64,000 nt of DNA, from the NCBI GenBank assembly GCA_023898525.1, contig CP060227.1, positions 429,634 to 493,633 of the forward strand, in the 5' to 3' direction. Origin of the DNA: Candidatus Nomurabacteria bacterium. Lineage in GTDB: Bacteria; Patescibacteriota; Minisyncoccia; Phycocordibacterales; UBA918. Numbering within the stretch: position 1 is the stretch's first letter; each line of letters starts with the position of its first letter. A program made the translations under genes and the position numbers. Shown piece after piece: positions 7,969 to 40,226 of this stretch. The notes under the pieces are model-generated. The model was not told where the DNA came from, made no database searches, and was given only the letters and a program-made list of their open reading frames with translations.

Positions 7969-8179
7969 ATTGTATTTAGTTACTTTACTGATTGATGTGT
8001 TCCAGGAATTTGCTCTAGGAAATGAGCAAATTCGGAACTAAATTCAGAATAGTCGCTTACGCTCCTTTCTTTATTTATTTTCATCACTCATATTAAATTC
8101 TATTAGTTTTGAATATTTAGTAATTTTAAATAAAAAATAATTAATTTCACTTTATATACTTTGTTAAATTAATTATTTC

Positions 8180-9593: not shown

Positions 9594-9673
9594 AATATTT
9601 ATATTATTAGCAAACGATTAACCTCTATAAACATCTTATCAGTCAAAACAAGGTATGCCCAGCCACTAACTGT

Positions 9674-10162: not shown

Positions 10163-10322
10163 TATTATACACTAGCCCCAACTACCATGATAAAAAATAA
10201 AGTCCCAGCAATCACTACCGCAAAACTGATCAGGAATTTATAAAATGTTTTATTGAACATTTGTTTATTATACACCACTCATACACAACCACGTTACAAC
10301 AAACACTCAGTCAAGTAATAAA

Positions 10323-10364
10323 CCAAGGGTAACCCTAGGCAAGTCTGCCTAGGGTTACCCTTGG
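10323..10364. repeat. REP-like perfect palindrome (ccaagggtaaccctaggca agtc tgcctagggttacccttgg)
   Basis: 19-bp perfect arms, 20 bp 3' of the RAYT-like transposase gene. A near-identical element occurs at 14054-14110. Confidence 0.7.
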
Positions 10365-10382
10365 TAAGTAATTTAATTACCC

Positions 10383-13307: not shown

Positions 13308-14053
13308 GCACTCAATTTAATGAGCAGTTAATTTGATAACGACTGATAATATGAATTAATTCATATTTCGTAGACGGTTTATCACGTCATCTACGCAATA
13401 TCACTAACTCCAGACTAACGGATATTTTATTTATCCCTCAGGCCAGAGGTTAGCTGCAATACAAGTCTGAGTTTCAATCATTAGCCACCAATACGGAATC
13501 AAGTTAGTCAGAAACGTGTGTACTTGAATATTATAAGGAATAATAATGTACGTGACACACAAACGTTTTGTAAGATTAGATATATAAAAATTATGCAGCC
13601 TCCTACACAACCCTGCTTAACTAAAAACTATCAAAATTCAAGACTCTGAAATTTAGTCAGCACGTCTCTCAAAGAACATTCATACCTTATGTACTATTTC
13701 AAAAAAATGCTTGGTAAATTGTAGTCTATACAATACCCGAATGACACTTCCAGAAAAAGCGCACATAAGCGCATAAGAAATAGTATATCAGTTTCTTATA
13801 CATTTACTGTAAGGTTTAAACATTCCCATGTGGATTATTTGCAGAAACTATTAAAAGAAAGTTTATGCATATAAAAAATCTGTTTAAACTATTGACTTAC
13901 AGCTGACACGATACGTCAAAGTATAAAAAACGTCAACGAAAACTACTCTTCCTGTCTGCGTATGATGACGACCAATACTACCTCATCTTACCAAAGAAAA
14001 AACACTAAAAAACAAAAAAAGCTAAGTGACAAGACCTTCTTCATGTGGAGTCA

Positions 14054-22976: not shown

Positions 22977-23909
22977 ATGTCACAAGAGCCAAAAACAAAA
23001 TCAATTAAAATCGTAGTGTTAATACTGATTGTCATTCTAGTTGCCCTAACAGGATATTTATTCCTAGAGAACAGCAAAAAGACTGACCAAATATTGGCTC
23101 TAAATACTGAGCGAGACGAGCTCCAGATATCGTTGGAAAAACTTGGTTTTGAGAAAACTCAAATCGAAAACACTGCCGAAGAGCTCACAAAAGAGTTGAC
23201 TCTGACCAAAGAAACGCTGCAAGAAACCGAAGACGATCTGAGACACGAAAAAAACAAAAATGATGATTTTGAAGATCAGATTCGCTCTATTTCCGGTACG
23301 GTAAAAGATTTGGATAAGCTTTCTAAGACCGATGAGGAACTACTACAAAAATATTCTCGTACTTATTTCTTGAATGAAAACTTCATCCCACTCAAATTAA
23401 AGCAAATTGACGATAAATACATATTGCCGGGTAAGAAGGACCAATATTTTCACGGTGATGCAATTGGGTTTTTAGAAGACTTGCTTGATGCCGCTAAAAG
23501 GGCCGGTCACGACATAAAAATAGTTTCAGCTTATCGGTCTTTTGACGAGCAACAGGATCTGAAGGGCCAATATACACAAGTCTACGGTAGCGGCTCAAAC
23601 GCTTTCTCAGCTGATCAAGGCTACTCGGAACACCAGCTCGGTACTACAGTAGATTTGACCGACGAATCTACCAACGGCACCTATCAGTCTTTTGGCGAAA
23701 CTGAAGCTTATAAATGGTTGGTGGACAACGCCTATCGCTACGGATTCATTCTCTCCTACCCTGAGAATAATGAGTTTTATATTTATGAACCATGGCATTG
23801 GCGCTTTGTCGGTACTGACCTAGCTGGCGACCTTCATCGCAAAAATGCCCAATTTTACGAATGGGACCAAAGAAAGATTGACGAGTATTTAATTAAGATT
23901 TTTGATTAA
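22977..23909 (+). CDS. Membrane-anchored D-alanyl-D-alanine carboxypeptidase (VanY / peptidase M15B-like) with coiled-coil linker
   Basis: SAYRSFDEQ, SEHQLGTTVDL and EPWHWRF motifs of the LAS metallopeptidase family; N-terminal TM. Confidence 0.75.
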   Translation: MSQEPKTKSIKIVVLILIVILVALTGYLFLENSKKTDQILALNTERDELQISLEKLGFEKTQIENTAEELTKELTLTKETLQETEDDLRHEKNKNDDFEDQIRSISGTVKDLDKLSKTDEELLQKYSRTYFLNENFIPLKLKQIDDKYILPGKKDQYFHGDAIGFLEDLLDAAKRAGHDIKIVSAYRSFDEQQDLKGQYTQVYGSGSNAFSADQGYSEHQLGTTVDLTDESTNGTYQSFGETEAYKWLVDNAYRYGFILSYPENNEFYIYEPWHWRFVGTDLAGDLHRKNAQFYEWDQRKIDEYLIKIFD

Positions 23910-23937
23910 GATTTAAAAAATGATCGGTCAGATAATG

Positions 23938-23972
23938 AAAGGCCGGTCGCTTCGCGACCGGCCTTTCTTTTC
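23938..23972 (+). terminator. Hairpin terminator (aaaggccggtcgc ttcg gcgaccggccttt)
   Basis: Perfect stem plus T-rich tail. Confidence 0.7.
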
Positions 23973-24079: not shown

Positions 24080-27000
24080 ATGACAACTCTTACTGTAATC
24101 CCTGATGGTACCATCAGAGAAGGACAGAGCGCTATTTTTACGATCGTTCTCTCTGAACCTTTAACCGAAAGTGTTTTCTTTAGAGCCTCAACCATTACCA
24201 GTGGCGGAGCCTCCACAGCCGACGGTGATTATGAAGGATTTACCGACCGTATCTATGAAATACCAGCTGGTAAAACTAGTCTACAAATTGCCGTGTCGAC
24301 CTACCAAGCCGGAACTATCAATGAAGGAGTCGAAGCGATTGGTTTATGGGTAGACGATGTCTCTCCATCAAACATCAGTATTACTGATAGCGGTGTTGGT
24401 AGCGGTCGAGCTTTCGTCACTATTTTGGACCCCGTAGAAATACGAGTTAAGAATACCAACGGCTACGAAGGTGGCCAGGTGGGATTTATCGTAGAAGCGG
24501 AAAGTCCAGTACCTCACGACACTACCGTGTACCTACAGGTACAAGGCACAACTACCGCTGGCATAGCTAGTAATTCATGGTGGGTACAGGGTGTAATCAA
24601 AGCTGGTCAGACAGCAACCACCGTCAACATTAATACTGTGGAAGATGGTCAAACTTATGACACCCGCATTAATGTCAAATTATTCTCGTACCACGAAGAC
24701 GTTATGATCTTGGATGATACCGCCTATGGTACGGTATACAATACGACACAAGTACAAACCATACCCATTCTTGATATTTTCGCTGGGGGCGATGTAAACG
24801 AAGGTGATACAACAGTCTCGTACGCGAGATTGTCGACAGCCACCGACCATGATGTGACTTTTAGGGTCTCAACTTGGCTCGGCGATATGTCAGGTGACGC
24901 CAACCGAAATCCAGATAGTCCTGACTACGTTTCGTTTGTGAATCGTTCATTCACTATCAGAGCGGGCCAAACTACGGTACCAATACCGGTACAAACACTG
25001 CAAAATGACGACCCGACCGACTGGGCACAAGAAGTGTTTAGTATTCGAGTCGAACCAAACAGTGTTTCAGGTGCTACCTTAGGCCAAAGTCGCGCGGACA
25101 TCGTAATACATGATGTAGCAATCACGACAACACCGGATAACCAAAATTTAGAAGATTTGAGTATCTATAAAAATCTAATAAATACTCTTGTCGCTAAAGA
25201 AGGTATCTCAAAAACGGCTGACATAATCGCCGCTAGCAACACACTTAAGAGCGCCGCCCAATCACTTGAAGCCAGAGAATTGTTGGCAGCCGGTGTTTGG
25301 GATGCAACTGGCTTGGGTGCCATTGGTGGGATAGAAACTTATCTTGACTACCTTAGCCTATTCCCTAGCACACTAGCATTCTTGATTCGGCCGGCTTACA
25401 AAGCCGCAACCGGCCTAGATTTGTTTGATTCCATAAATTACAGTGAACTGGTTAATATTCCAGGAGCAGTTGCTCCCAGTGGCATTATATTTACCGGAAA
25501 CCAAGTATTATATGAAGGCAAACAAATCATTACCGATAACGATAGAGTAAACTGGACAGCTGACCAAGCCCTAGCGATAGCGAATGGAGAGCTGACTGAG
25601 ATACTTAAGGCTGGAGATTATGTTGATGGGAGGTTGGTGATACATCAGCCTGTAATAGCTTTCGATAGCTCTGGAAATTTGGTTAAACATACGAGTTATC
25701 AAGGTCGCTATGATCCTGAAAGAACCTCTGTTATGTCTGGCTCAAAGACCGATAACGTTTCACATTATGATGAAAATGCACAAAGTTTTGATTGGAGTGG
25801 AAATGTAGCTGATACAGTTTATATAGTAGCTCCATTTGATGGTTATGTAGTTTATTCCACTGATACGTACGCTTCTAAAGAAGTGAGTAACGGTGGATTA
25901 GGCAACGTAATTACTTTGCGAGCTGAACAAAAAACCACAGACGGCAAGGATGTGTTTGTAACCTTTGCTCACATAAAGCAAGGTAGTATAACAAGCAACC
26001 TTATCACAACACCTAAGAACCCTCCCGAAACAGATACTTCAATACCAGTAAAAGCCGGTCAAGTGTTGGGTATCGTTGGTGACACCGGTGGTAATTGGCC
26101 AGTGCATCTGCATATGTTGGCAGGTAACAACACATCAACCTATGGCACTATGACGGCTAAAGCTGGGCTGCGTGAAGGTCAAGTCGACACCCCTCCAGTC
26201 TTCATGCTTTTTGAAGGGGCAAAAATAGCTACCCGTAGTGAATTAAACTCGGGTATACGCGAGCGAGGAGGCGACTTTAAGCAAGACATTGGTTTCCCTA
26301 TAGGTGACACAGATACTTCTAGTGGAGCCTACAGCGAAATCGGATTATCTAGTGATGAACCATTGGTAGCAAAAAATATAAGCTCTACTTTTACCAAAGG
26401 TGAATTCTACGAAATAAACCCTACCTTTTCTTCAACAGACTCAGGAGGCCAAGGCGGCGACTTTCCCACCCCAGACCCAATCTGGAACGGAACGGACACC
26501 GCCGAAACCAACGAGTACTGGCAGGACAAAGTTTCAGCCGTCAATGAATTTATCTACGCCGGTGGCGGTTATGATTTCATTCTCGCCTCTGGTGGAGATG
26601 ATGTAATTGACGGACAAGGTGATGGTGGACAAGTCAACCTCTTTGGTCCGGGAGCTATTCGCGCCAACTTCTCCGTCACTACTACAGGTGATGGTGGATA
26701 CCGAGTACATAGTATCGATGGTTCTTTTGGTACTGATAAGTACTACAATATCGACGGTATGTGGTTTGGTGGTTACGGCAATATCCCTGGAGCTTGGCAT
26801 AATATGAATGACTTAGTCATAAACACCTTTAATGATGGTGACGGTACTTTACCTTCAGTAGCCGATCCTTACGATGAGTTATTTGCCGGTACTTCAGGCG
26901 ATGATCTCATAATAGGTGGTACTGGTATTGATTGGTTTACCGCTACACCGGGGAATGACATTCTCTATGGTGGAGACGGAAAGAACGTCGACCAAAGCTG

Positions 27001-27205
27001 GAACCAGGTTAATTTCACCACCGCTCCCTTCTATGAAATGCAGTGGGGTTATGACATCGCCAGCGACTTGTTATTTTCTCGTCACCCTAACCTCGATCTT
27101 GATTCATACAACCGTGACATCACCGACTTCTGGTTTCAAGATGGTGGCTGGCACGGTCGAGCTGAACTTATTGGTCTAGCGTCTCCTGACTTTGTATTTG
27201 TGTAG
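24080..27205 (+). CDS. 1041-aa multidomain protein: three Calx-beta-like repeats, an M23 (LytM-type) peptidase domain, and C-terminal RTX-like Ca-binding repeats; no N-terminal signal peptide
   Basis: Calx-beta-like repeats span ~24080-25115 (ADGDYEGF, ATDHDVTF). The M23 domain spans ~25750-26150 (HYDEN ... GDTGGNWPVHLHM). GGxGxD-type repeats span ~26550-26960 (GGTGIDWFTATPGNDILYGGDGKN). Confidence 0.8.
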   Translation: MTTLTVIPDGTIREGQSAIFTIVLSEPLTESVFFRASTITSGGASTADGDYEGFTDRIYEIPAGKTSLQIAVSTYQAGTINEGVEAIGLWVDDVSPSNISITDSGVGSGRAFVTILDPVEIRVKNTNGYEGGQVGFIVEAESPVPHDTTVYLQVQGTTTAGIASNSWWVQGVIKAGQTATTVNINTVEDGQTYDTRINVKLFSYHEDVMILDDTAYGTVYNTTQVQTIPILDIFAGGDVNEGDTTVSYARLSTATDHDVTFRVSTWLGDMSGDANRNPDSPDYVSFVNRSFTIRAGQTTVPIPVQTLQNDDPTDWAQEVFSIRVEPNSVSGATLGQSRADIVIHDVAITTTPDNQNLEDLSIYKNLINTLVAKEGISKTADIIAASNTLKSAAQSLEARELLAAGVWDATGLGAIGGIETYLDYLSLFPSTLAFLIRPAYKAATGLDLFDSINYSELVNIPGAVAPSGIIFTGNQVLYEGKQIITDNDRVNWTADQALAIANGELTEILKAGDYVDGRLVIHQPVIAFDSSGNLVKHTSYQGRYDPERTSVMSGSKTDNVSHYDENAQSFDWSGNVADTVYIVAPFDGYVVYSTDTYASKEVSNGGLGNVITLRAEQKTTDGKDVFVTFAHIKQGSITSNLITTPKNPPETDTSIPVKAGQVLGIVGDTGGNWPVHLHMLAGNNTSTYGTMTAKAGLREGQVDTPPVFMLFEGAKIATRSELNSGIRERGGDFKQDIGFPIGDTDTSSGAYSEIGLSSDEPLVAKNISSTFTKGEFYEINPTFSSTDSGGQGGDFPTPDPIWNGTDTAETNEYWQDKVSAVNEFIYAGGGYDFILASGGDDVIDGQGDGGQVNLFGPGAIRANFSVTTTGDGGYRVHSIDGSFGTDKYYNIDGMWFGGYGNIPGAWHNMNDLVINTFNDGDGTLPSVADPYDELFAGTSGDDLIIGGTGIDWFTATPGNDILYGGDGKNVDQSWNQVNFTTAPFYEMQWGYDIASDLLFSRHPNLDLDSYNRDITDFWFQDGGWHGRAELIGLASPDFVFV

Positions 27206-27296
27206 TATTTGTTCTTTTTAACAGATCGCCTAGAAATTAGGCGATCTTTTCTTTTACCTAAGGCTGTGGTACGGTACGAACATGAAAAAGATTATA
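27008..27296 (+). repeat. Repeat copy 1 (~290 bp): last ~65 codons of the giant gene, its terminator hairpin, and the RBS/start of the next gene
   Basis: ~99% identical to 27953-28243 (3 mismatches seen by eye). Confidence 0.85.
27223..27255 (+). terminator. Terminator hairpin inside the repeat unit (agatcgcct agaaatt aggcgatct tttctttt)
   Basis: Perfect 9-bp stem plus T-run, 15 nt after the giant-gene stop. Identical copy at 28168-28200. Confidence 0.65.
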
Positions 27297-27953
27297 ATGA
27301 TAACTTTAGTAGCGGTTTTAGCGATAGCTGTATCAGCTTTTATAATATCAGATAATAATCAAGAGACTGAAGTAAATACTGTTGTATCAAACCCTGTTGA
27401 GGAGACTAAGTCTTCACAAAAGTCTACTTATACCAGCAATGAAATAGGTATTACTTTTACTTACGATAAAAGGTTTGGGCAGCCGAAATTTTTAGATTTT
27501 TCTAAATATTGTACAGAAATAAAAGCATCTGATGATAGAATTTGCCAAAATTTTCAAATTTTGTTTGGGGGAGATAATTCAAATCTAGCAGATGTAGCAA
27601 TTTTTGCTGTCAATAAAGTTCGCCTTGAAAGCAATGAGTTGAGTCAAATTGGGAAAGAGGGAGTGGCATTCCCTTGGCCACCAACAGAATCAATGTCAAT
27701 GGATGATGAATGTTTTGTTCCGGGAGTACCTAATTACTCCAATGGTAAATGTGAGTATGTTACAAAAAATAATATCCTTATGCGACACACTTATTTAGAT
27801 GTGCAAAACACAATAAATGATTTTCCTCGTTATGAATATAGTTTTTATGTACCAGATAAAGACTTAGGAGTTGTTATTTACACAAAGGAACATGACTCTG
27901 AAAACCATATTGACTTTATAGAAAGAATAACAGAAAGTCTGAGTTTGAATTAG
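27282..27953 (+). CDS. Cassette gene A: signal-anchored, Cys-containing secreted protein (candidate immunity protein)
   Basis: 223 aa starting MKKIIMITLVAVLAIAVSAF. Preceded by repeat copy 1; its stop is followed immediately by repeat copy 2. Confidence 0.6.
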   Translation: MKKIIMITLVAVLAIAVSAFIISDNNQETEVNTVVSNPVEETKSSQKSTYTSNEIGITFTYDKRFGQPKFLDFSKYCTEIKASDDRICQNFQILFGGDNSNLADVAIFAVNKVRLESNELSQIGKEGVAFPWPPTESMSMDDECFVPGVPNYSNGKCEYVTKNNILMRHTYLDVQNTINDFPRYEYSFYVPDKDLGVVIYTKEHDSENHIDFIERITESLSLN

Positions 27954-28243
27954 ATTTCACCACCGCTCCCTTCTCTGAAATACAGTGGGGTTATGACATC
28001 GCCAGCGACTTGTTATTTTCTCGTCACCCTAACCTCGATCTTGATTCATACAACCGTGACATCACCGACTTCTGGTTTCAAGATGGTGGGTGGCACGGTC
28101 GAGCTGAACTTATTGGTCTAGCGTCTCCTGACTTTGTGTTTGTGTAGTATTTGTTCTTTTTAACAGATCGCCTAGAAATTAGGCGATCTTTTCTTTTACC
28201 TAAGGCTGTGGTACGGTACGAACATGAAAAAGTTAATACTTAT
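27953..28243 (+). repeat. Repeat copy 2 (~290 bp); encodes an orphan start-less C-terminal fragment (...DFTTAPFSEIQWGYD...GLASPDFVFV*) in a frame different from gene A
   Basis: Near-identical to 27008-27296. Confidence 0.85.
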
Positions 28244-28907
28244 AATCTTAGGTATAGTTATGTTAGTGACGGCAGGACTTTTGCTAAACAACACGCAATA
28301 TCAGATACAAGACGACCTTGATTTATCAGAATCAACTTCTACTATTGGTGTACTCGGTATACCAAAACCACTGACCTTAGCTTCGTTGGAAGCTAGAGAG
28401 GACTGGAACCCAACCATGGAAATAGAAGGTATGGTTAGGGTGGAAGATGGAGTGGCGGAATTGTCGGATAAAGAGAAAAAAATTAAAAAGCATAATATTC
28501 ATTTTTCACAATTAAACGATAGTTTTGTTACCGTTCTCCACTACGACGATGATTTTGAAAGTGAGTTTTGTGCCAAAGAAATGATGAGTGACCTACCAAA
28601 CGTACCGCTCAAGTGTCCACGATATAAACCATCTGAATACAATGAATTTATTATTCTTTCCAAAGATACCGGTGAGGTACTACATAAGTATAGGCTTAGA
28701 GAGGGGTATTCGATGACTACAACTGCCGCTGTATTACTTGGCAGTACAATATCACCCGGTTTTGGTAGCGACGAAAACCTATATTTTCATATAGGCCGAA
28801 TAGACATGGTAGAGAGAGAAGAGACCATTACTTCATCATTTAGCTACACTCTTAACGTTGTTACCGGTGAAATAACATTGGGTTATGATAGTAAAAGTGT
28901 GCGGTAA
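28224..28907 (+). CDS. Cassette gene B: signal-anchored secreted protein (candidate immunity protein), unrelated in sequence to gene A
   Basis: 227 aa starting MKKLILIILGIVMLVTAGLLL. Same upstream repeat, RBS and start context as gene A. Confidence 0.6.
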   Translation: MKKLILIILGIVMLVTAGLLLNNTQYQIQDDLDLSESTSTIGVLGIPKPLTLASLEAREDWNPTMEIEGMVRVEDGVAELSDKEKKIKKHNIHFSQLNDSFVTVLHYDDDFESEFCAKEMMSDLPNVPLKCPRYKPSEYNEFIILSKDTGEVLHKYRLREGYSMTTTAAVLLGSTISPGFGSDENLYFHIGRIDMVEREETITSSFSYTLNVVTGEITLGYDSKSVR

Positions 28908-28984
28908 CTTTTTTGATAGAGTCGTTTGTTTTTCCTAAAAATGTGATGTGTTGCTGGGTATAAAAAGTGAAATGACACAGATGT

Positions 28985-29082
28985 CTACAACCGTGACATC
29001 ACCGACTTCTGGTTTCAGGATGGTGGCTGGCACGGTCGGGCTGATTTGATTGGTTTAGCTGATAGCACCTTTTTTGTGTAGT
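28985..29082 (+). repeat. Repeat copy 3 (degraded, ~100 bp, ~85% identity): orphan fragment ...YNRDITDFWFQDGGWHGRADLIGLADSTFFV*
   Basis: Aligned by eye to 27110-27205. Confidence 0.7.
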
Positions 29083-29156
29083 TTTGGTTATTTGTTGTGG
29101 TTCTTTAGCTGTCACTTTCGAGCAACAGATGATGACACTTTGCTAACAGATAATAA

Positions 29157-33938: not shown

Positions 33939-35948
33939 CTACTCTGCCTGTACTCGACCGTTACCCTCAGAAAAACCTAGTTCTTCCGAAAGATTATTGT
34001 CCAACTTAATAGCCCTAGCTTTGAGACCGACTTCGGTAAACCGATCAGTGGCCCGAAAGTCCTGAGCTTCCAGCAGTGTCAATGTTTTACCAATATGTGT
34101 CACACTTGGCAAGAGCTTGATTTGCATCTTGATTTGCTTTTGCTGATGAGCTGACATATTCCCAACCCTCCAGCTAATTTGTTTAGAAACTGGATTAAAT
34201 TCAATTTCACCATCACCACTAGTTCTCTCTGCCCAGCTTACATACTGAGGTAAAGCAGTAGTCACCACTCCGCCTGATATATCGTTAACCCCAGCAGTCG
34301 CGACTAGTGTAATAGTGTAGTCAGTTGTCTGCCCAGCCACTGGTGGGACGGGTCCACCGTCACCAAACGGACTACTAGTATGGTTTATTTCTCCGGCAAT
34401 TTGTATTTCTGAAGAATACTTAGCTTCAGCCACCGCTGTTCCAACTAGATTTTCATTGGCATTAGCTTCATTTACCCGCCTGGCAAAGACCTTCACCGAC
34501 AAATCAAACGAGCCAGTGCTCTGTCCCTTGTCCGGCTTCACGGTAAATGAAAACTTACGACTTTCTCCAGGTGGTACTTCTGTCAAAGATTTCATTCCAG
34601 CAATTTCCCAATTGATTTTTTTGGTCACTGAATCATAAAATCCGCTGGAAATATCCAAATTGTCATCGCGGATTAAGTTCCCTCGTGGCACCAACTCTAC
34701 CCGCATATCATACAAAGTCTCGTTCATAGTATTGGCTACAAGAACTTCAACATTAGCATCTGCACCAGCCGCCAACACAGCCGCTCCATCGCGATCACCA
34801 CCAATACCAACGGTCACATCTATGAAAGGATTCTCAATTGTGTACCCTACTTTAGTCTGCGTCAAAACAGAACTTAATTCAGTTTGATTATCTGATTTTG
34901 GCGTACCAGCTTTAAGCTGTATCTCAGCCGCCTCGCTAGCTAGTCCGGTGACTAAACCTTTAAAAGTAATTGTATAGACAGTGTCAGGAAGAACTTCATC
35001 TAGAAGCCAACTATTTTGACCATAGGTTGTCTGTGGTACCGCATTCAAAAAGGAGAAGCTGTTGGGATAGTCAGCGGTTATCAATACATCATGCATTGGA
35101 TTTATAGCGTTAGATAAAAGAGTCAAAGTTACTTCAAGCTCCTGTCCGGAAGAAATTTTCTCAACCGCTTCAGTCCGAATCACAATGGGAGAAGAGTTTA
35201 TTTTAACCATAACCGGTTCTGCGTTCTTGTAGAAAGTACCGTTGGAATTTTTTACCCGATATTCAATTGTTGCCTTTATTTCCTTGTCTTCATTTTCTTC
35301 ACCAAACATTATGACCTTGATTGGTTTATTAACCACTCCACCCGCTTCAATATCTTCAAGCGGCAAACGATCTTCATACAAGTCGCGATTACCTTCCTCA
35401 ACCGACTTTGTTCCTGGCGGATAATTTAGAATCAAGGTAGCTGATTCAATCGGAATGGAGTTTTGGTTGGTAATACCCACCTGAATCGGAACTGTATCGC
35501 CACCCGCCACTGAAAATGGCGCTTCAATAGAAATGCTGATATTGTTGGCTGATATTTGATTACCACCCAACAATATATAAATAGCGGAACCGATAACCGA
35601 CAGCAGCAAAACTCCCAAACTAAAAAGAAGAATGATGGTTCGGTAAGTTCGGTTTTTCTTAGGAGGAGGAACGACAACATCTTTATCATTTTGAATAATT
35701 GTATCGGAGATTTGTGAAACTATACTCTCAGACTCATTTGGTGGCAGTTGGGTCACTGGTGGATTGTCGTGTGTACTTATATTTTCTTTAGCCGGAATTT
35801 GACTTGCGACTTCACTTCCCCAACCCCGCTTAACATCGATTGATGTTTTAGTAAGATCATGCCTTTTTACACTTTTATCTTGCCAACCACGATCGTAAAG
35901 ACGCTTTCGTAGCTCGTCGATATTTTCCTGATCTTTAATTCCCGACAT
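33939..35948 (-). CDS. Large hypothetical membrane protein (cytoplasmic N-terminus, one TM, ~540-aa beta-rich extracellular region)
   Basis: 669 aa; TM TIILLFSLGVLLLSVIGSAIYILLGG. Confidence 0.5.
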   Translation of the reverse strand: MSGIKDQENIDELRKRLYDRGWQDKSVKRHDLTKTSIDVKRGWGSEVASQIPAKENISTHDNPPVTQLPPNESESIVSQISDTIIQNDKDVVVPPPKKNRTYRTIILLFSLGVLLLSVIGSAIYILLGGNQISANNISISIEAPFSVAGGDTVPIQVGITNQNSIPIESATLILNYPPGTKSVEEGNRDLYEDRLPLEDIEAGGVVNKPIKVIMFGEENEDKEIKATIEYRVKNSNGTFYKNAEPVMVKINSSPIVIRTEAVEKISSGQELEVTLTLLSNAINPMHDVLITADYPNSFSFLNAVPQTTYGQNSWLLDEVLPDTVYTITFKGLVTGLASEAAEIQLKAGTPKSDNQTELSSVLTQTKVGYTIENPFIDVTVGIGGDRDGAAVLAAGADANVEVLVANTMNETLYDMRVELVPRGNLIRDDNLDISSGFYDSVTKKINWEIAGMKSLTEVPPGESRKFSFTVKPDKGQSTGSFDLSVKVFARRVNEANANENLVGTAVAEAKYSSEIQIAGEINHTSSPFGDGGPVPPVAGQTTDYTITLVATAGVNDISGGVVTTALPQYVSWAERTSGDGEIEFNPVSKQISWRVGNMSAHQQKQIKMQIKLLPSVTHIGKTLTLLEAQDFRATDRFTEVGLKARAIKLDNNLSEELGFSEGNGRVQAE

Positions 35949-35982: not shown

Positions 35983-36561
35983 TTAGAGGTGGCTATTCGC
36001 AACTGCGTTGTCTATTAGTTTCTTCATTTTTTCAGCTGACAACTCAGATTCATATTCAGCCAAGGTACTGGCCGGGGCCACCTTGAAGTTTTTGGGAATA
36101 TCTTTTGAATCAACATAGCCAAGCTCGTCCAAAATCCTTAATTGCACCGCCAATTCCAGAAAGCTGCGCTTTTGACACTCACTAATCAAAAGACGCGAGG
36201 CACCAACACAGAAGTCAAAAAGTAAAGAGTGCGCCTCCTCACCATGGACAAACCGCCTTAAGGTCTTCATAAGCATGACCACACTACCACGAGCCTCACG
36301 ACTCTTAGCTGTAGCAAAATAGTTTGGCCCTGGAACAACACTACCGATTCGCCAACCTTGCTTACCTTTCACTAAAGAGACTCTGATTTGAGAAAACTCT
36401 TGCAAGGCCGGCCGCTGCTTCGACCGCTCTTCGCGCACACTACGGGCAGTAGCATAGAGCATGCCTGCCTCACGGGTAAAAAGCACAAATACCTTATCAG
36501 CGGTATTGTGCAAAAAACTACCGCAAACTATCGCCTCTGTGATGTAGGTTTGGTATGACAT
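35983..36561 (-). CDS. recO: DNA repair protein RecO-like
   Basis: N-terminal OB-fold pattern (TEAIVCGSF...VFVLFTREAGMLYATARSVRE), 192 aa; abuts ileS. Confidence 0.5.
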   Translation of the reverse strand: MSYQTYITEAIVCGSFLHNTADKVFVLFTREAGMLYATARSVREERSKQRPALQEFSQIRVSLVKGKQGWRIGSVVPGPNYFATAKSREARGSVVMLMKTLRRFVHGEEAHSLLFDFCVGASRLLISECQKRSFLELAVQLRILDELGYVDSKDIPKNFKVAPASTLAEYESELSAEKMKKLIDNAVANSHL

Positions 36562-39500
36562 TAAACCTTAACAATAGAAATTAGGTATGAATTATCACCA
36601 ATTTGGATTTCTTTTCCTTTGGTTGTGGTAAATGTGATTTCTTTCGCTCCAACCACTTTCTTGATTATATCTAGCTGTGCTTTTACCATCTCCTCACCAG
36701 CTGGTGATGTGGCTATGGTCAGAGTAATTACGTCCTGGGGCTTGAGACCAGACTCTTTACGCATATCCTGTATAACCCTAATCAATTCACGCGCCTCTCC
36801 CTCCTGTTTCAATTCGGTAGTAATATTAGTGTCGAGTACCACTACTTCAGACTGAGTTTCGTTGACTGTAACCGTCTTTACATTAACCTCGTCTGCAATC
36901 ACACTTAATAACTCTGAATCAACCGGTTTAGAGACCGACAAAGACGACAGTGGTTGTCGTACCTTTATTCCAGATCGTGTGCGCTGCTCCAAAGCCAAGG
37001 TCACTAATTCACGGGTAGTCCTCATACAATCAAGTAAAACTTCATTAACAGACCCGGTCTCTGGCCACTTAGCCAAGTGCACGCTCTCTGCCTCACTTTC
37101 ATCTCGCACTGCTCGGTATAGATATTCAGCGTAGAAAGGCATGGCCGGTGCCATTACCTTGGCTAATTCACGAAGGACATAGCGCAAGGTACCAAGCGCT
37201 AGCTTCTTGTCTTCCACATCCTCACCCTTGAGACGGTCACGTGAGCGGCGGAGATACCACACGGACAAATCATCAATAAAATCAGTAATTGGTCGCACGG
37301 CTTTATCGAGCTCATAAGCTTTGTAACCAGCAGTTGATTCGGCGATCAGTTGATTGAGGCGCGCCACGATCCAGCGATCTAAAACATTATTGGAATCGTG
37401 GCGCGGTTCGGAAGCCCCCCGGGCTTCCTCACCACCATCCGCAAACATTTCATACATCGCCAGTACATTATGAAGTCGTCCGATATTCTTCCGTTGTATT
37501 TCAAGCACGTCTTTTTCGGCGAAGCTCAAATCTTCACTATGCACTACCGGCGAAGACAAAAGATAATACCGCATCGAGTCTGCCCCCAAGCGACCCACGA
37601 GCTCCATCGGATCAGGATAGTTCTGCAATGACTTACTCATTTTCTTTCCATCCTCCGCCAAAACCAATCCGTTTACAATCACATTCTCATACGGCGACTT
37701 ACCAAAAAGCGCCACCCCTAAGACGAGCATGGAGTAAAACCACCCCCGAGTCTGATCTAGACCCTCAGCAATAAACTGCGCCGGGAAACGCTCTGCCTCG
37801 AACTTTTCCTTATTTTCAAACGGATAATGAAGCTGCCCATACGGCACCGACCCACTCTCAAACCAACAGTCAAAGACATCCGGCACTCGCTTTAATTCCT
37901 CCCCGTCTTCATACAACTTAATATCGTCGATATATGGTCGATGATAATCGAGTTCGTAGCTGTCGTTATGAGGAAATGGCACAAACGGCAAAGCTCTGAG
38001 CTCTGCGTTATTTAAGTCGTAGGTATTTTCCTCAATAATCTTTCCTAAAGTTTCAAAATCATCACCTTTGGCGACCGCTTGCAACATCTGCAAAGTCCCG
38101 TTATGAGAAACAAACAAAACATTCTTATCCTTATGCTTTGTTTCAATTTCATTCAACAATTCACCCGCTCGTCTTTTCACATCCGTCCAGTTTTCTCCTC
38201 CTTCTGGAGTTTTGGTCAAACGATCAGTTCCAGTCGTAAAAAAAGCGTGATATTCACTTACAGTCTTGCCATCAAATTCACCAAACCGTACTTCAAGCAA
38301 ACGTTCGTCCGCCACTAAAACCTCCTTAGACAAACCTAGTCCTTCCGCTACTTTCTCTGCCGTTTCTTTCGTGCGTTGTAGTGGAGAATAATAAATAAGA
38401 TCAATCTTTTCGGCTTTTAGTTTTTCTACCAACTCACTTACCTGCTCTTTACCTTTATCAGTAATACCATTCTCAACCGCCACATCCACATTTAAAGTCT
38501 CTTTGGTATTCAAAGCTGATTCAGCGTGACGGGTAATAAAGTATTTATTGCCACTTTTGGGCACAAATTCCTGCATCTCAGCCATGCTACCGAACACCTT
38601 ATATTCACCAGTCTTTTCATTTTTCCAGATCGGCAGTGGCGCACCCCAATAACGCTGCCTAGACACCGCCCAGTCGCGTGCCCCTTCCAGCCACTTGCCA
38701 AAGCGGTTTTGTCCGACATAATCCGGCACCCACTTCACTTTATTATTGGCGGCCACCAACTCATCTCTCATGTCAGTTACTTTCACAAACCACGATGTAG
38801 TCGCGTAATTTAAAAGCGGTGTGCTGTCGCGCCAACAATGCGGGTAACTGTGAGTGATATTTTCTTTCTTGAAAATCTTTCCAGCTGTTTGTAGGTGACG
38901 CAAGACTTCAATATCCGCATCCAAGTGCGACACCCGAGCTTCATCGTCATCTTTTGGCTTCACTAATTGCCCAGCAAAGTCAGTCACAAAATCCATAAAC
39001 CGCCCACCATAATCAACATGGTGTGCGATAGGAATATTATTTTCCTTAGCTACATTCATATCGTCCTCACCATAAGCCGGCGCCAAATGCACGACCCCAG
39101 TCCCCTCCTCACCAATTTCGACAAAATCCGCGTGGTAAATCTTCCAAGCTTTTTTTTCTTTTTCTTTCTCCTCATTAAAATCATCTATTCTTTTTGGGCC
39201 TCTAGGTGTTGCCCATAAATTTTCAAAGTAATTGAACGGTGGCTCGTATGACAGATCTAGCAAGTCTGAACCTTTCATTTCCTCTACCACCTCATAAGGC
39301 AAATCACCCAATTGAGCCAATCGACCTTTGGCTAAAATTACATTCTCGTATTTAATTTCCTTTTTTATTTCTCCATCAGCACCCACTCTGTCAGGAATAG
39401 TTGAGTTTAGAACAGAAACCTTCACATAATCCAACTCTTGATTGACCGCAATTGCCATATTACCTGGCAAAGTCCACGGGGTCGTCGTCCAAATCAAGAT

Positions 39501-40226
39501 ACTGGTATCAGTCTTATTACCGTTTTCATCCAGTAGTGGCATTTTGACCGTCACCGCGATATCCTTCACATCCTTATAACCTTGATTCACCTCAAAGTTA
39601 GACAAAGTCGTCCCACAGCGTGGACAAAGATGCATACTCTTAAATCCTTCATACACCAGCCCCTTTTCATGGAGTTGCTTAAATACCCACCACACACTTT
39701 CGGTGTAGTTTGAGTCCATGGTCTTGTAATCATTTTCCATGTCGACAAACCGACCAAGGCGCGGGATAATCTGTCGCCAATCATCCGCATACTCCAAGAC
39801 CGCCTCCCTAGCGGCTTCATTAAAATTCTTGATACCGTAGTCCTCGATATCTTTTTTGTTGGCTAGGCCAAGTTTTTTCTCAATCAAGTTCTCCAGGGGC
39901 AAACCATGACAATCCCAACCCCACTGCCGCCTTACGCGGTAGCCATTCATCGTCCAAAAACGCGGGATTGCATCTTTTATAGTGCCCGGCACTATATGAC
40001 CATAATGTGGCAAGCCAGTTGCAAACGGCGGTCCATCATAAAAAATATAATCTCCTTTAGGACTCTCTCCCGCCGGCTTCTCTACACTTTTATTAAAAAT
40101 ATCATTCTCCTCCCAAAAAGCCTGTACCTCTTCCTCCCGCAAAGCTACCTCAGACTTCTCTACTTCTTTCACCACCTCAACTGAATCGTTCTCACGACCG
40201 TGTACTTTTTTATCTTTCATATTCAA
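36561..40226 (-). CDS. ileS: Isoleucyl-tRNA synthetase with an embedded histidine-phosphatase (PGAM-like) domain (~170 aa insertion at 38037-38555)
   Basis: HYGH (LPHYGHIVPG) and KMSKSLQN class I motifs. Between the PIW block and HRPYIDD lies ITRHAES...SPLQRTKETA...VSHNGTL, matching histidine phosphatase signatures. Confidence 0.85.
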   Translation of the reverse strand: MNMKDKKVHGRENDSVEVVKEVEKSEVALREEEVQAFWEENDIFNKSVEKPAGESPKGDYIFYDGPPFATGLPHYGHIVPGTIKDAIPRFWTMNGYRVRRQWGWDCHGLPLENLIEKKLGLANKKDIEDYGIKNFNEAAREAVLEYADDWRQIIPRLGRFVDMENDYKTMDSNYTESVWWVFKQLHEKGLVYEGFKSMHLCPRCGTTLSNFEVNQGYKDVKDIAVTVKMPLLDENGNKTDTSILIWTTTPWTLPGNMAIAVNQELDYVKVSVLNSTIPDRVGADGEIKKEIKYENVILAKGRLAQLGDLPYEVVEEMKGSDLLDLSYEPPFNYFENLWATPRGPKRIDDFNEEKEKEKKAWKIYHADFVEIGEEGTGVVHLAPAYGEDDMNVAKENNIPIAHHVDYGGRFMDFVTDFAGQLVKPKDDDEARVSHLDADIEVLRHLQTAGKIFKKENITHSYPHCWRDSTPLLNYATTSWFVKVTDMRDELVAANNKVKWVPDYVGQNRFGKWLEGARDWAVSRQRYWGAPLPIWKNEKTGEYKVFGSMAEMQEFVPKSGNKYFITRHAESALNTKETLNVDVAVENGITDKGKEQVSELVEKLKAEKIDLIYYSPLQRTKETAEKVAEGLGLSKEVLVADERLLEVRFGEFDGKTVSEYHAFFTTGTDRLTKTPEGGENWTDVKRRAGELLNEIETKHKDKNVLFVSHNGTLQMLQAVAKGDDFETLGKIIEENTYDLNNAELRALPFVPFPHNDSYELDYHRPYIDDIKLYEDGEELKRVPDVFDCWFESGSVPYGQLHYPFENKEKFEAERFPAQFIAEGLDQTRGWFYSMLVLGVALFGKSPYENVIVNGLVLAEDGKKMSKSLQNYPDPMELVGRLGADSMRYYLLSSPVVHSEDLSFAEKDVLEIQRKNIGRLHNVLAMYEMFADGGEEARGASEPRHDSNNVLDRWIVARLNQLIAESTAGYKAYELDKAVRPITDFIDDLSVWYLRRSRDRLKGEDVEDKKLALGTLRYVLRELAKVMAPAMPFYAEYLYRAVRDESEAESVHLAKWPETGSVNEVLLDCMRTTRELVTLALEQRTRSGIKVRQPLSSLSVSKPVDSELLSVIADEVNVKTVTVNETQSEVVVLDTNITTELKQEGEARELIRVIQDMRKESGLKPQDVITLTIATSPAGEEMVKAQLDIIKKVVGAKEITFTTTKGKEIQIGDNSYLISIVKV

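What the first reader, a model, noticed from the sequence alone, without database searches (positions are those of the whole stretch)
24080..29100. Giant Calx/M23/RTX effector followed by a cassette array with a triplicated 3'-end segment
The last ~65 codons of the 1041-aa gene, its terminator hairpin, and the RBS/ATG of the next gene form a ~290-bp unit at 27008-27296. That unit recurs at 27953-28243 at ~99% identity, and again at 28985-29082 in degraded form (~85%). Each full unit precedes a different signal-anchored small gene (A: 27282-27953; B: 28224-28907). Copies 2 and 3 encode start-less orphan C-terminal fragments (...YNRDITDFWFQDGGWHGRAELIGLASPDFVFV). Near-identical flanks around unrelated genes point to ongoing recombination and cassette exchange. 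This is the architecture of polymorphic toxin/immunity loci such as the orphan CT-immunity arrays of CdiA, Rhs and MafB. Here the conserved module is the extreme C-terminus, possibly a T1SS-type secretion signal matching the RTX repeats. The effector would be a peptidoglycan hydrolase. I have not seen this combination described before.
Basis: partly seen in the sequence, partly recalled or inferred. Interest (0 to 1): 0.85.

Follow-up and report, generated by a model that had tools for sequence, protein, structure and literature searches.

The report
Swappable cell-wall toxin locus, tiny bacterium
A small-genome candidate-phyla (Nomurabacteria) bacterium carries a large secreted-type protein with an exchangeable cell-wall-cutting module, followed by an array of small membrane-anchored genes separated by left-over copies of the big gene's tail. 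This is the signature of a recombining toxin/immunity locus, which I found no description of in this group of bacteria.

Summary
Window 27012-27290 recurs at 27954-28232 (275 of 279-280 compared positions identical), and a decayed copy lies at 28986-29093. Each full unit holds the last ~65 codons of the 1041-aa gene, a terminator-like hairpin, and the ATG of the next gene.

Genes A and B show no detectable homology beyond their membrane anchors. The same layout, "big gene, small gene, orphan 3' end, small gene", recurs in independent assemblies of relatives (L001, L002, L009, L010/L011). So it is neither an assembly artefact nor a generic REP.

In L001 the orphan plus its downstream gene is 93.9% identical to the intact 3' end plus gene of L002. 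It is only 85.6% identical to L001's own 3' end. That makes it a relic of a displaced allele.

The big proteins are mosaics:
- The Calx-beta-like N-terminus is 93.8% identical in DNA between genomes whose flanks are about 75% identical.
- An internal M23 peptidase module drops to 26-44% amino-acid identity.
- The RTX C-terminus is mostly constant.

Best reading: a polymorphic effector/immunity-type locus that evolves by sequential displacement and cassette recombination. It has an internal variable toxin module and a constant RTX tail. The immunity function and the export route are inferred, not shown. I rate it a new variant of a known kind.

The parts
24080..27205 (+). Effector gene (1041 aa, NCBI H6779_01990). 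It has no N-terminal signal peptide. Order of domains: Calx-beta-like tandem beta-sandwiches, helical linker, M23 peptidase module, RTX/beta modules.
   Evidence: ORF. Identity to the MAG Candidatus Nomurabacteria protein. Pfam HemolysinCabind scores 35.9 bits, above its cutoff of 23. Mosaic relatives.
24080..25130 (+). Constant N-terminal region (aa 1 to ~350): three beta-sandwich repeats, Calx-beta-like.
   Evidence: Among P0002-P0005 this region is 92-94% identical in amino acids. In DNA it is 93.8% identical between genomes whose flanks are 74-77% identical. Relatives P0037 and P0039 pass the Pfam Calx-beta cutoff, and the profile matches a 16x Calx-beta protein. Foldseek on the low-confidence model gives tandem beta-sandwich arrays, including NCX1 CBD12. 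The window protein itself has no Pfam Calx-beta hit at E<0.1.
25667..26179 (+). M23 (LytM-type) metallopeptidase module (aa ~530-700). It is the core of the polymorphic segment, which spans aa ~500-790.
   Evidence: Pfam Peptidase_M23 gives E=1e-3 at aa 581-679, below the cutoff. Relative P0041 scores 36.4 bits, above the cutoff of 28.7. The module profile hits more than 20 solved M23 structures, with the HxH motif in register with lysostaphin in the printed alignment (DipM 6e-5, lysostaphin 6.6e-5, zoocin A, LytM, ShyA). Invariant residues are D571, H631, H676 and H678, and the S-H of H(x)nD is nearly invariant. In P0002 vs P0003 this segment is 26-44% identical, against 88-98% and 80-98% on either side.
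26537..27202 (+). Constant C-terminal region (aa ~820-1041): two modules of RTX nonapeptide repeats plus a beta unit. The protein ends ...SPDFVFV.
   Evidence: Pfam RTX hit. CyaA and lipase RTX structures match. The same ~200-position module is found in hundreds of unrelated RTX proteins, fused to cellulase, esterase, dehydrogenase or cadherin-like domains. The last module ends within 15 aa of the C-terminus in 63 of 137 proteins.
27012..27290 (+). Repeat unit copy 1: last ~65 codons of the effector, stop codon, terminator-like hairpin, spacer, and ATGAAAAAG of gene A.
27223..27247 (+). Terminator-like hairpin (11-bp stem, GAAAT loop, T-run) inside copy 1.
27282..27953 (+). Gene A (223 aa, H6779_01995). 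It has an N-terminal membrane anchor or signal and is a candidate immunity or accessory protein of the 'A family'.
   Evidence: ORF. It matches only itself in the 5.8-billion-protein word search. It has distant relatives inside other arrays: L012 gene 4 (blastp 1.5e-10) and L004 gene 3. There is no homology to B beyond the anchor. GC is 0.34-0.39, against about 0.45 for the effector.
27954..28232 (+). Repeat unit copy 2: orphan 3' end of the effector (27954-28147), starting directly after A's stop codon, then the hairpin (28165-28189) and ATGAAAAAG of gene B.
   Evidence: It is out of frame with gene A (read directly from the coordinates).
28224..28907 (+). Gene B (227 aa, H6779_02005). It is a membrane-anchored, all-beta extracytoplasmic protein of the 'B family' and a candidate cognate immunity protein.
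   Evidence: There are 26 homologous clusters. Wherever their context could be read, they lie downstream of related effectors, or after an orphan 3' end at a contig start (L009). Two Cys residues are invariant. The AF2 model has pLDDT 74.9. No informative fold or sequence match was found.
28986..29093 (+). Repeat unit copy 3: a decayed orphan 3' end (last ~30 codons plus the stop at 29079-29081). It has no hairpin and no downstream gene.
28881..28888 (+). Possible left junction of copy 3. B ends ...GEITLGYDSKSVR, whereas all other B-family proteins end ...GEIT(L/R)E. GGTTATGA matches the effector's ...WGYD codons at 27047-27054.
   Evidence: This is only suggestive (8 nt plus microhomology).

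Best explanation
This is a polymorphic effector / immunity-type locus of a candidate-phyla-radiation bacterium (Candidatus Nomurabacteria).

**The effector.** It has four parts: a constant Calx-beta-like N-terminal region, a linker, an exchangeable internal M23 metallopeptidase (peptidoglycan endopeptidase) module, and a largely constant RTX C-terminal region. It lacks a Sec signal. It is presumably exported or displayed through its C-terminal RTX part.

**The small genes.** The genes downstream belong to at least five families with little or no detectable similarity to one another. All have an N-terminal membrane anchor and an extracytoplasmic domain. They are most likely immunity proteins. 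One would be cognate to the resident M23 type, and the others would be retained or acquired 'orphans' that protect against relatives' effectors.

**How the locus evolves.** Incoming DNA recombines through the constant parts of the effector gene. It brings a new module and/or a new small gene, and pushes the resident 3' end plus its small gene downstream. Because the tail of the effector is constant, the relics are copies of that constant tail. The copies then act as portable homology for three kinds of event: further insertion, deletion (pop-out), or Campbell-type re-insertion of cassettes.

**In this window.** The order is effector, A, relic, B, older relic. The 98% identity of copies 1 and 2 means A was inserted very recently, or the two copies are kept alike by gene conversion.

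**What is shown.** The repeat, the domain content, the mosaicism, the recurrent orphan architecture, and the foreign origin of the L001 orphan.

**What is inferred.** Toxicity, immunity, the export route, and the exact recombination pathway.
For: 1. The repeat is real and confined to this locus.
2. A and B are unrelated beyond their anchors.
3. The same unit (effector 3' end, intergenic hairpin, first codons of the next gene) is duplicated in relatives. In L010, 8136-8618 vs 9596-10078 is 84.6% identical over 486 nt, and this is reproduced at 99.7% in an independent assembly, L011. L001 has an orphan at 10053-10373. L009 has one at 127-319 followed by a B gene. L002 has one at 12260-12317.
4. 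L001 10112-11407 (orphan plus gene X) is 93.9% identical over 1301 nt to L002 10180-11478 (intact 3' end plus gene X). It is only 85.6% identical to L001's own 3' end. So the orphan is a relic of a different allele.
5. Mosaic effectors: P0002 vs P0003 are 88-98% identical over aa 1-490, 26-44% in the M23 region, and 80-98% in the C-terminus. In DNA, flanks are 74-77% identical, the 5' 1-1.5 kb of the effector is 93.8% identical, and the rest shows no detectable similarity.
6. The first or shared downstream gene family tracks the M23 type. Alpha type (window, L001) goes with B. Beta type (L002) goes with X. Gamma type (L003/L012/L013) goes with B'. Delta type (L004, L005) goes with C.
7. Array length differs between 99%-identical strains: six genes in L012 and three in L013. 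The two alignment blocks overlap in L013, and a 48-nt repeat (96% identical) sits at the corresponding L012 positions.
8. M23 catalytic motifs are conserved in all module types.
9. B has an invariant Cys pair and a membrane anchor. That fits an extracytoplasmic protein placed where a peptidoglycan hydrolase acts.
10. The displacement mechanism, with relic 3' ends of effectors, is established for Vibrio cholerae T6SS clusters and for Rhs (PMC5361080).
Against: - The M23 type to small-gene association rests on only about 7 loci and is not one-to-one. In the window, A and not B is adjacent to the effector. The delta types have different first genes.
- The known immunity factors for the M23 bacteriocins lysostaphin and zoocin A (Lif, Zif) are FemABX-like rather than small anchored proteins (titles in the reference list of PMC9662197). 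That FemABX-like factors act by modifying the wall is my own knowledge.
- The first zinc-ligand His is variably spaced.
- No transporter genes were found.
- Whether the target is a competitor, the host bacterium of an episymbiont, or the cell's own wall is unknown.
- The window's own repeat (98% identical) could be a local event with no horizontal transfer.
Confidence: 0.6

Rival explanations
1. This is a variable surface-interaction locus, not toxin/immunity. The big protein is a Ca-binding adhesin or cell-wall-remodelling enzyme that an episymbiont uses on its host. The small anchored proteins are docking, anchoring or accessory partners, or variable surface antigens. Diversity is driven by host or phage specificity. 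The same recombination machinery would generate the repeats.
For: The effector has adhesin-like parts (Calx-beta-like repeats and RTX). The small proteins resemble no known immunity family. The small genes share conserved 5' anchor-coding ends within arrays, as variable surface gene families do. Patescibacteria are epibionts that attach to host bacteria (PMC13622651).
Against: Retaining several unrelated families in one array, together with relic effector ends, is the pattern of immunity-gene accumulation (PMC5361080). The sharply polymorphic part is the enzymatic M23 module with its catalytic motifs kept. It is not the adhesin-like repeats, which are the most conserved part.
Confidence: 0.25
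2. The window's triplication is a purely local event: a tandem duplication or unequal crossing-over of [3' end + downstream gene] followed by gene conversion of the flank. There would be no cassette import. A and B would be ancient paralogues diverged beyond recognition.
For: Copies 1 and 2 are 98% identical, with zero changes in the non-coding part, as expected for a recent duplication or conversion. A and B have the same length and topology. No close relative of this genome is available to show an A-less allele.
Against: A and B show no homology beyond the anchor (hhalign probability 18.6%). Each has closer relatives in other genomes' arrays than in its own genome: A with L012 gene 4, and B with L001 genes 1 and 4 at 52-54%. 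A has lower GC than its neighbours. In L001 the orphan demonstrably derives from another allele.
Confidence: 0.1
3. Assembly artefact: the repeats arise from mis-joining strain variants in a metagenome-assembled genome.
For: The genome is a MAG. Reads are not available here, and the window's proteins are not on record in other assemblies.
Against: The copies differ at 4 positions and have different, complete genes on either side. The same architecture occurs in at least five other assemblies, at 82-86% identity between copies. One of these junctions is reproduced at 99.7% in two independent assemblies. The contig is 1.09 Mb long.
Confidence: 0.03
4. A generic intergenic repeat (REP or terminator element) that happens to sit here.
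For: The unit contains a terminator-like hairpin.
Against: Two thirds of the unit is coding sequence, homologous at protein level to the C-termini of relatives' effectors. All three copies in 64 kb are in this locus. Only the window was searched; the remaining ~1.02 Mb of the genome was not.
Confidence: 0.02

Closest known systems
Sequential displacement arrays of T6SS effector-immunity modules in Vibrio cholerae (Kirchberger et al. 2017, PMC5361080), and Rhs C-terminal displacement (Jackson et al. 2009, cited there)
   Same: An incoming module recombines through a conserved upstream region. The resident effector end and its immunity gene are shifted downstream. The result is arrays of heterogeneous immunity genes, in places preceded by relic effector 3' ends. 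No integrase is involved. The arrays are mosaic between strains and species.
   Different: There is no T6SS, Rhs, VgrG or PAAR context. The organism is a candidate-phyla-radiation bacterium. The variable toxin module is internal, and the effector's tail is constant. The relics are therefore near-identical constant tails that also carry the terminator, spacer and start codon of the next gene.
CdiA-CT/CdiI, Rhs-CT/RhsI and MafB orphan toxin-immunity cassettes (PMC3150448, PMC4436062; listed, not read; the comparison rests on my own knowledge)
   Same: A conserved N-terminal part with variable toxin-bearing part(s). A small gene lies immediately downstream. Start-less orphan fragments are followed by further small genes. 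Homology at cassette borders allows exchange.
   Different: In those systems the orphan carries a different, complete toxin domain preceded by a short constant motif (VENN, PxxxxDPxGL). Here the orphan is only the constant last 30-107 codons and carries no toxin module, so it cannot serve as a toxin reservoir. The trafficking domains are also different.
Xanthomonas/Stenotrophomonas T4SS effectors (X-Tfe) with a conserved C-terminal XVIPCD secretion domain and adjacent immunity lipoproteins (PMC6536674, PMC6759196; found; details from my own knowledge)
   Same: Variable cell-wall-degrading domains lie upstream of a constant C-terminal recognition domain. The cognate immunity protein is extracytoplasmic and encoded next door.
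   Different: No XVIPCD domain or T4SS genes are seen here. In those systems orphan C-terminal relic arrays are not, to my knowledge, a described feature.
M23 bacteriolysins (lysostaphin, zoocin A) and RTX proteins exported by type I secretion
   Same: The M23 catalytic motifs and the profile match to lysostaphin, zoocin A and LytM. RTX nonapeptide repeats near the C-terminus, and an acidic-then-hydrophobic extreme C-terminus (…DFVFV). The latter resembles the protease/lipase class of T1SS signals (my own knowledge).
   Different: The known immunity to lysostaphin and zoocin A is FemABX-type cell-wall modification, not small anchored proteins. No ABC or membrane-fusion transporter genes were found here. 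An M23 module embedded between Calx-beta-like repeats and RTX modules was found in only about 10 clusters among 1.84 billion representatives.
Integron gene-cassette arrays
   Same: New cassettes are added next to a fixed point and push older ones back. Arrays hold unrelated small genes, each bounded by a repeated element.
   Different: There is no integrase and no attC-like sites. The repeated element is a piece of the effector's coding sequence. The neighbours are housekeeping genes such as RecA, EF-P, SSB, S6, TatD and MetRS.

Membership tests
Polymorphic toxin systems (sensu Zhang/Aravind 2012; Jamet & Nassif 2015) | Close homologues share a conserved N-terminal region but carry divergent toxin-bearing regions. 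| tested here: met
   In DNA the 5' 1-1.5 kb is 93.8% identical and the rest undetectable, while flanks are 74-77% identical. In amino acids, aa 1-490 are 88-98% identical and the M23 region 26-44%. Departure from the family norm: the variable module is internal and the C-terminus is often constant.
Polymorphic toxin systems | A small gene immediately downstream co-varies with the toxin domain (cognate immunity). | tested here: inconclusive
   Different M23 types are followed by different small-gene families. However, only about 7 loci are available, the relation is not strictly one-to-one, and in the window gene A is interposed.
Polymorphic toxin systems | Orphan toxin-end/immunity cassettes lie downstream of the main gene. 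| tested here: met
   Window copies 2 and 3. L001, L002, L009 and L010/L011. The orphans carry the constant tail only, not a toxin domain.
Polymorphic toxin systems | The toxin is toxic to target cells and is neutralised specifically by the cognate immunity protein. | not testable with these tools
   This needs expression and competition assays or binding studies.
Peptidase family M23 (LytM-type) | H(x)nD and HxH zinc/catalytic motifs, plus a His ~30-45 residues before HxH (PMC9662197). | tested here: met
   D571, H631, H676 and H678 are invariant in 6 effectors and in 11 modules. The S-H upstream of the Asp is nearly invariant, with variable spacing. HxH aligns in register with lysostaphin HLH.
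Peptidase family M23 (LytM-type) | Sequence-model membership (Pfam PF01551 gathering score). | tested here: inconclusive
   The window protein scores 19.6 bits, below the cutoff of 28.7. Relative P0041 scores 36.4 bits, above the cutoff. The family profile hits more than 20 solved M23 structures, with E down to 6e-5.
RTX proteins / type I secretion substrates | GGxGxD nonapeptide repeats in the C-terminal part. | tested here: met
   Pfam HemolysinCabind scores 35.9 bits, above the cutoff of 23. CyaA RTX matches at 4.5e-9.
RTX proteins / type I secretion substrates | A dedicated ABC transporter and membrane-fusion protein (with or without an outer-membrane factor). | tested here: inconclusive
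   None among the ten largest ORFs of the window or the genes within ±6 kb. RND plus membrane-fusion genes sit next to the locus in L002, L003 and L012 only. The remaining ~1.02 Mb of the genome could not be searched.
RTX proteins / type I secretion substrates | An uncleaved secretion signal at the extreme C-terminus. | not testable with these tools
   The protein ends …SPDFVFV, acidic then hydrophobic. The ~100-aa module ends 63 of 137 proteins that carry it. This is consistent with a signal but is not a test.
Calx-beta domain | Pfam PF03160 match or Calx-beta fold. | tested here: inconclusive
   The window protein has no hit at E<0.1. Relatives P0037 (35.2 bits) and P0039 (35.8 bits) pass the cutoff of 27. 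The profile N-terminus matches a 16x Calx-beta protein at 7e-74. The model is of low confidence (pLDDT 50) and its matches are tandem beta-sandwiches, including NCX1 CBD12.
Integron cassette array | A tyrosine-recombinase integrase adjacent to the array, and attC sites bounding the cassettes. | tested here: not met
   The neighbours are housekeeping genes. The bounding repeat is effector coding sequence plus a terminator.

The most novel reading that the evidence does not exclude
Candidate-phyla-radiation bacteria (Nomurabacteria, Pacebacteria and relatives) possess their own class of polymorphic antibacterial or host-attacking effector. It is a signal-less protein displayed or exported through an RTX tail, in which an internal M23 peptidoglycan-endopeptidase module is swapped between species. 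It is accompanied by growing arrays of extracytoplasmic immunity proteins. The effector's constant tail, terminator and start codon serve as an integrase-free 'attachment site' that lets whole cassettes be inserted, excised and passed between genomes.
Probability: 0.4. Interest if true: 0.75.

Novelty: new variant of a known kind. Interest (0 to 1): 0.62.

Why it matters
Candidate-phyla-radiation bacteria have tiny genomes, and many live attached to other bacteria. How they compete with kin or breach host walls is largely unknown. A recombining effector/immunity-type locus would give concrete, testable candidates: an M23 module, and small anchored partners such as A and B.

The locus has a constant region that is 94% identical across genomes whose housekeeping flanks are only about 75% identical. 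That shows active inter-species exchange even in these reduced genomes.

It would also extend the displacement model of immunity-array growth in two ways: to a toxin whose variable module is internal, and to relic constant tails that act as portable recombination sites. I found no paper in the held library describing polymorphic toxins encoded by Patescibacteria. That library is incomplete.

Tried and rejected
- **Exact-protein look-ups.** The window's effector, A and B were searched in other assemblies to find alternative junctions. None is on record.
- **Collection scans.** Scans of genome contigs and metagenome contigs with the effector alignment added only a duplicate (L007 = L005) and a truncated locus (L008). 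The family is rare.
- **Gene A.** It matched only itself in the word-indexed 5.8-billion-protein search. Relatives were found only by blastp within arrays fetched through B homologues.
- **Full-length AlphaFold model of the effector.** The 6-sequence alignment gave poor confidence (pLDDT 50, pTM 0.28). It could not be used to inspect the M23 active site, and the Foldseek hits mean little beyond tandem beta-sandwiches.
- **Family searches for the small proteins.** Pfam, NCBIfam and PDB-sequence searches found no family. The only hits were weak PsbP_2 matches for A and its relative.
- **Corrected reading.** I first read L002 and L013, which come from the same assembly, as strain alleles. Their flanks are only 75-80% identical, so they are syntenic loci of related species. 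L012 vs L013 is the true strain-level comparison.
- **Integron-like mechanism.** Considered and rejected. No integrase was found among the ten largest ORFs or the ten neighbouring genes scanned, and the bounding repeat is effector coding sequence rather than an attC-like site.
- **Generic REP.** Considered and rejected.

Full report
**1. Observation**

The window encodes three genes on the + strand: a 1041-aa ORF (24080-27205), gene A (27282-27953, 223 aa) and gene B (28224-28907, 227 aa).

The repeat finder reports 27012-27309 vs 27954-28251 at 97% over 298 nt, and a third copy whose 74-nt core (28986-29059) is 92% identical. Base by base, 27012-27290 and 27954-28232 match at 275 of the 279-280 compared positions. 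There are four mismatches in the 194 coding bases (two non-synonymous). There are none from the stop codon through a hairpin to ATGAAAAAG, after which similarity collapses.

Copy 2 begins on the base after A's stop codon and is out of frame with A. Copy 3 (28986-29093, 82% over 111 nt) keeps the stop codon but has lost the hairpin and has no following gene.

A 32-mer from the unit occurs three times in 64 kb, all here, against zero expected. The hairpins at 27223-27247 and 28165-28189 score as intrinsic-terminator-like.

**2. Whose genome, and what surrounds the locus**

The three proteins are identical to hypothetical proteins H6779_01990, _01995 and _02005 of a MAG of Candidatus Nomurabacteria, on a 1.09-Mb contig.

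The neighbours are housekeeping genes: RecA, a sigma factor, EF-P, SSB, S6 and a VanY carboxypeptidase upstream, and TatD, a GDSL hydrolase, MetRS and other tRNA synthetases downstream. No integrase, transposase, ABC exporter or membrane-fusion protein was found among the ten neighbouring genes scanned or the ten largest ORFs.

**3. The big protein**

- **RTX.** Pfam gives RTX repeats above threshold. A family profile matches the RTX blocks of CyaA and of lipases.
- **M23.** For the window protein alone, the M23 hit is sub-threshold (E=1e-3) and Calx-beta is absent.
- **Family size.** An exhaustive HMMER search of 1.84 billion representatives found about ten clusters with the same N-terminal-plus-M23 architecture. 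Among them, P0041 passes the M23 cutoff, and P0037 and P0039 pass the Calx-beta cutoff.
- **M23 profile.** A profile of eleven M23 modules hits more than 20 solved M23 structures (DipM, lysostaphin, zoocin A, LytM, ShyA). The HxH motif is in register with lysostaphin in the printed alignment.
- **Catalytic residues.** D571, H631, H676 and H678 are invariant, and an upstream Ser-His supplies H(x)nD with variable spacing. These are the family's defining motifs (PMC9662197).
- **N-terminus.** It shows no signal peptide (read directly from the sequence).
- **Model.** The AlphaFold model of the whole protein was too poor to use (pLDDT 50).

**4. The C-terminal module**

The last ~200 residues are two units of RTX repeats followed by a beta segment. 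The same module occurs in hundreds of otherwise unrelated RTX proteins (159 representatives score below 1e-30, most of them through this module). In those proteins it is fused to GH5 cellulase, SASA esterase, glucose/sorbosone dehydrogenase, galactose-oxidase-like or cadherin-like domains.

In 63 of 137 such proteins the last unit ends within 15 residues of the C-terminus. The window protein ends …SPDFVFV.

This fits a generic export or display module. It does not demonstrate type I secretion, and no transporter genes were found.

**5. Relatives show the same architecture**

The six homologous effectors found by the protein search (P0001-P0006, the first being the window's own), together with loci reached through B homologues, give eight distinct loci apart from the window.

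| Locus | Order of elements |
|---|---|
| L001 | effector, B, orphan 3' end, X, B, B' |
| L002 | effector, X, other gene, orphan fragment, truncated small-gene start |
| L009 | orphan 3' end, B, B-like |
| L010 (Pacebacteria MAG) | effector, 345-aa gene, orphan 3' end (79% identical to the last 106 aa), B |
| L012 | effector plus six small genes |
| L013 | the same effector plus three small genes |
| L004, L005/L006 | effector plus two or three small genes |

In L010 the duplicated unit is again the effector 3' end, the intergenic hairpin and the first ~26 codons of the next gene (8136-8618 vs 9596-10078, 84.6% over 486 nt). That junction is reproduced at 99.7% in an independent assembly, L011. 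This rules out an assembly artefact as a general explanation, and it rules out a generic REP.

**6. Evidence for displacement**

L001 10112-11407 (orphan, intergenic region and gene X) aligns to L002 10180-11478 (the intact 3' end of L002's effector, intergenic region and gene X) at 93.9% over 1301 nt. The same orphan is only 85.6% identical to L001's own effector 3' end. At protein level it is 90.7% identical to P0003 and 85.3% to P0002.

So the orphan and X are the remains of an L002-type allele, pushed downstream when the present 3' part and gene B arrived. This is the sequential-displacement model proposed for Vibrio cholerae T6SS clusters and for Rhs (PMC5361080).

**7. Mosaicism**

Sliding-window identity on the protein alignment shows the following:
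- P0002 vs P0003: 88-98% over aa 1-490, 26-44% over aa ~500-750 (the M23 module), and 80-98% thereafter.
- P0004 shares the N-terminus but differs in both the M23 module and the tail.
- P0005 shares only aa 1-350.
- The window protein shares its M23 type with P0002.

At DNA level:

| Comparison | Flanking genes | Effector 5' end | Rest of effector |
|---|---|---|---|
| L002 vs L012 | 74-77% identical | 93.8% over 1.5 kb | undetectable |
| L001 vs L004 | 75% identical | 93.8% over 1.05 kb | undetectable |

A constant region far more similar than the housekeeping flanks, next to a hypervariable region, is the hallmark of polymorphic toxin genes exchanged between species. The unusual point is that the variable enzymatic module is internal and the tail is usually constant.

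**8. The small genes**

All have an N-terminal hydrophobic anchor. They fall into families:
- **B:** the window's B, plus L001, L003, L004, L009, L010, L012 and L013. There are 26 clusters in the database.
- **X:** L001 and L002. This family is distantly related to B (hhalign probability 93.8%).
- **C:** L004 and L005.
- **A:** the window's A, L012 gene 4 (1.5e-10) and L004 gene 3.
- Several singletons.

A and B are not detectably related beyond the anchor (hhalign probability 18.6%). B has an invariant Cys pair and a mostly beta ectodomain (pLDDT 74.9). It has no informative structural or sequence match, and the other families match nothing either.

Small genes within an array often share their 5' anchor-coding ends. 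The strain-level difference between L012 (six genes) and L013 (three genes), whose flanks are 99% identical, is flanked by such a repeat. The two alignment blocks overlap in L013, and a 48-nt repeat (96% identical) sits at the corresponding L012 positions, 11470-11517 and 13823-13870.

The gene family shared by loci with the same M23 type is B for the alpha type (window, L001), X for beta, B' for gamma and C for delta. This association is suggestive but rests on few loci.

**9. Mechanism proposed**

*Shown:* the locus is a recombination hot spot. Constant parts of the effector gene and conserved 5' ends of the small genes flank variable segments, and relic 3' ends mark past insertions.

*Inferred:*
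- The M23 module is a secreted peptidoglycan endopeptidase used against competitors or hosts.
- The anchored small proteins are immunity proteins acting outside the membrane.
- The relics, which carry the terminator, spacer and start codon, act as portable homology. A unit such as [A + repeat] can then be inserted by homologous recombination, lost by repeat-by-repeat deletion, or transferred with a new M23 module.

In the window, B is probably cognate to the alpha-type module, because B also follows the alpha-type effector of L001. A would be a recent insertion, given the 98% identical repeats and A's lower GC. Copy 3 is the oldest relic. B's atypical C-terminus, …GEITLGYDSKSVR against …GEITLE in the other members, may mark the junction with that relic.

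**10. Rivals**

A non-toxin reading cannot be excluded, and I give it about 0.25. In that reading the big protein is an adhesin or wall-remodelling enzyme with variable docking partners or surface antigens.

A purely local duplication with gene conversion could explain the window's copies 1 and 2. It does not explain why A and B are unrelated, nor the L001 evidence.

An assembly artefact and a generic REP are both very unlikely, for the reasons given above.

**11. Comparison and novelty**

In mechanism, the closest known systems are the displacement arrays of V. cholerae T6SS effector-immunity modules and of Rhs. In architecture, the closest are the CdiA, Rhs and MafB orphan cassettes. In the logic of a constant C-terminal recognition domain, the closest are the XVIPCD effectors of Xanthomonas.

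This locus differs in five ways:
- lineage (candidate phyla radiation);
- domain combination (Calx-beta-like, M23, RTX; about ten clusters in 1.84 billion representatives);
- an internal variable module;
- relics that are constant tails rather than alternative toxins;
- candidate immunity families that are new.

I found no description of polymorphic toxins encoded by Patescibacteria in the held literature.

**Verdict:** a real feature and a new variant of a known kind. Interest is about 0.6, limited by the absence of any functional evidence for toxicity, immunity or the export route.

Noticed in passing
window 36561-40226 (-): A 1220-aa class I tRNA synthetase (tRNA-synt_1, Anticodon_1, DUF5915; IleRS-like) carries a histidine-phosphatase (His_Phos_1) domain inserted at aa 562-730, E=1.3e-32. 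This is an unusual insertion or fusion.
   Followed up: no
L002 vs L012, and L001 vs L004 (related loci): The 5' 1-1.5 kb of the effector gene is 93.8% identical in DNA between genomes whose flanking housekeeping genes are only 74-77% identical. The rest of the gene shows no detectable DNA similarity. This implies recent inter-species exchange of the constant region.
   Followed up: yes
L012 9256-13870 vs L013 2670-4942: Two assemblies with 99%-identical flanks differ in array length, six versus three small genes. The two alignment blocks overlap in L013, and a 48-nt repeat (96% identical) lies at L012 11470-11517 and 13823-13870. The repeat derives from the 5' anchor-coding end of a small gene.
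   Followed up: partly
L010 10684-10820: Directly after the B-family gene lies a fragment matching aa 255-300 of the same locus's effector N-terminal (beta-sandwich) region, at 62-92% identity. It could be a relic of a second, tandem effector gene.
   Followed up: no
L010 8646-8771: A perfect-register 63-nt tandem duplication (98% identical) lies inside the 345-aa small gene. It duplicates 21 codons (…NVATTTEGLSFKTGQKMIFVE…).
   Followed up: no
L001 10363-10415 vs L005 9517-9569; L001 9227-9316 vs L004 11160-11249: The intergenic hairpin region after the effector stop codon is 90-92% identical between loci whose effectors are only ~40% identical, or unalignable, in their 3' halves. So the non-coding spacer is more conserved than the adjacent coding sequence.
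   Followed up: partly
window 28868-28907: Gene B ends …GEITLGYDSKSVR, whereas the other full-length B-family proteins aligned end …GEIT(L/R)E. The extra codons begin with GGTTATGA, identical to the effector's …WGYD codons at 27047-27054. This may be the fusion junction with the oldest relic.
   Followed up: partly
window 22977-23909 (+) and 23937-23967: Immediately upstream of the effector lies a membrane-anchored VanY-type D-Ala-D-Ala carboxypeptidase with a long coiled-coil linker (E=6e-33). It is followed by a strong 14-bp-stem terminator. This is another cell-wall enzyme, but it is not conserved next to the effector in relatives.
   Followed up: no
L002 16009-16549; L005 139-712: ParE/ParD toxin-antitoxin pairs lie a few kb from the effector loci in two unrelated genomic contexts.
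   Followed up: no
L002 2659-7300; L003 2294-6941; L012 1298-5945: An RND transporter (ACR_tran) and a membrane-fusion protein (BSH_CzcB/YknX_C) are divergently adjacent to the effector in three loci, but not in the window, L001, L004 or L005. Their relevance to export is unknown.
   Followed up: no
window 33939-35948 (-) and 11220-13307 (-): Two large ORFs have little or no annotation: a 668-aa protein with a DUF11 repeat and a 694-aa protein with no Pfam match.
   Followed up: no
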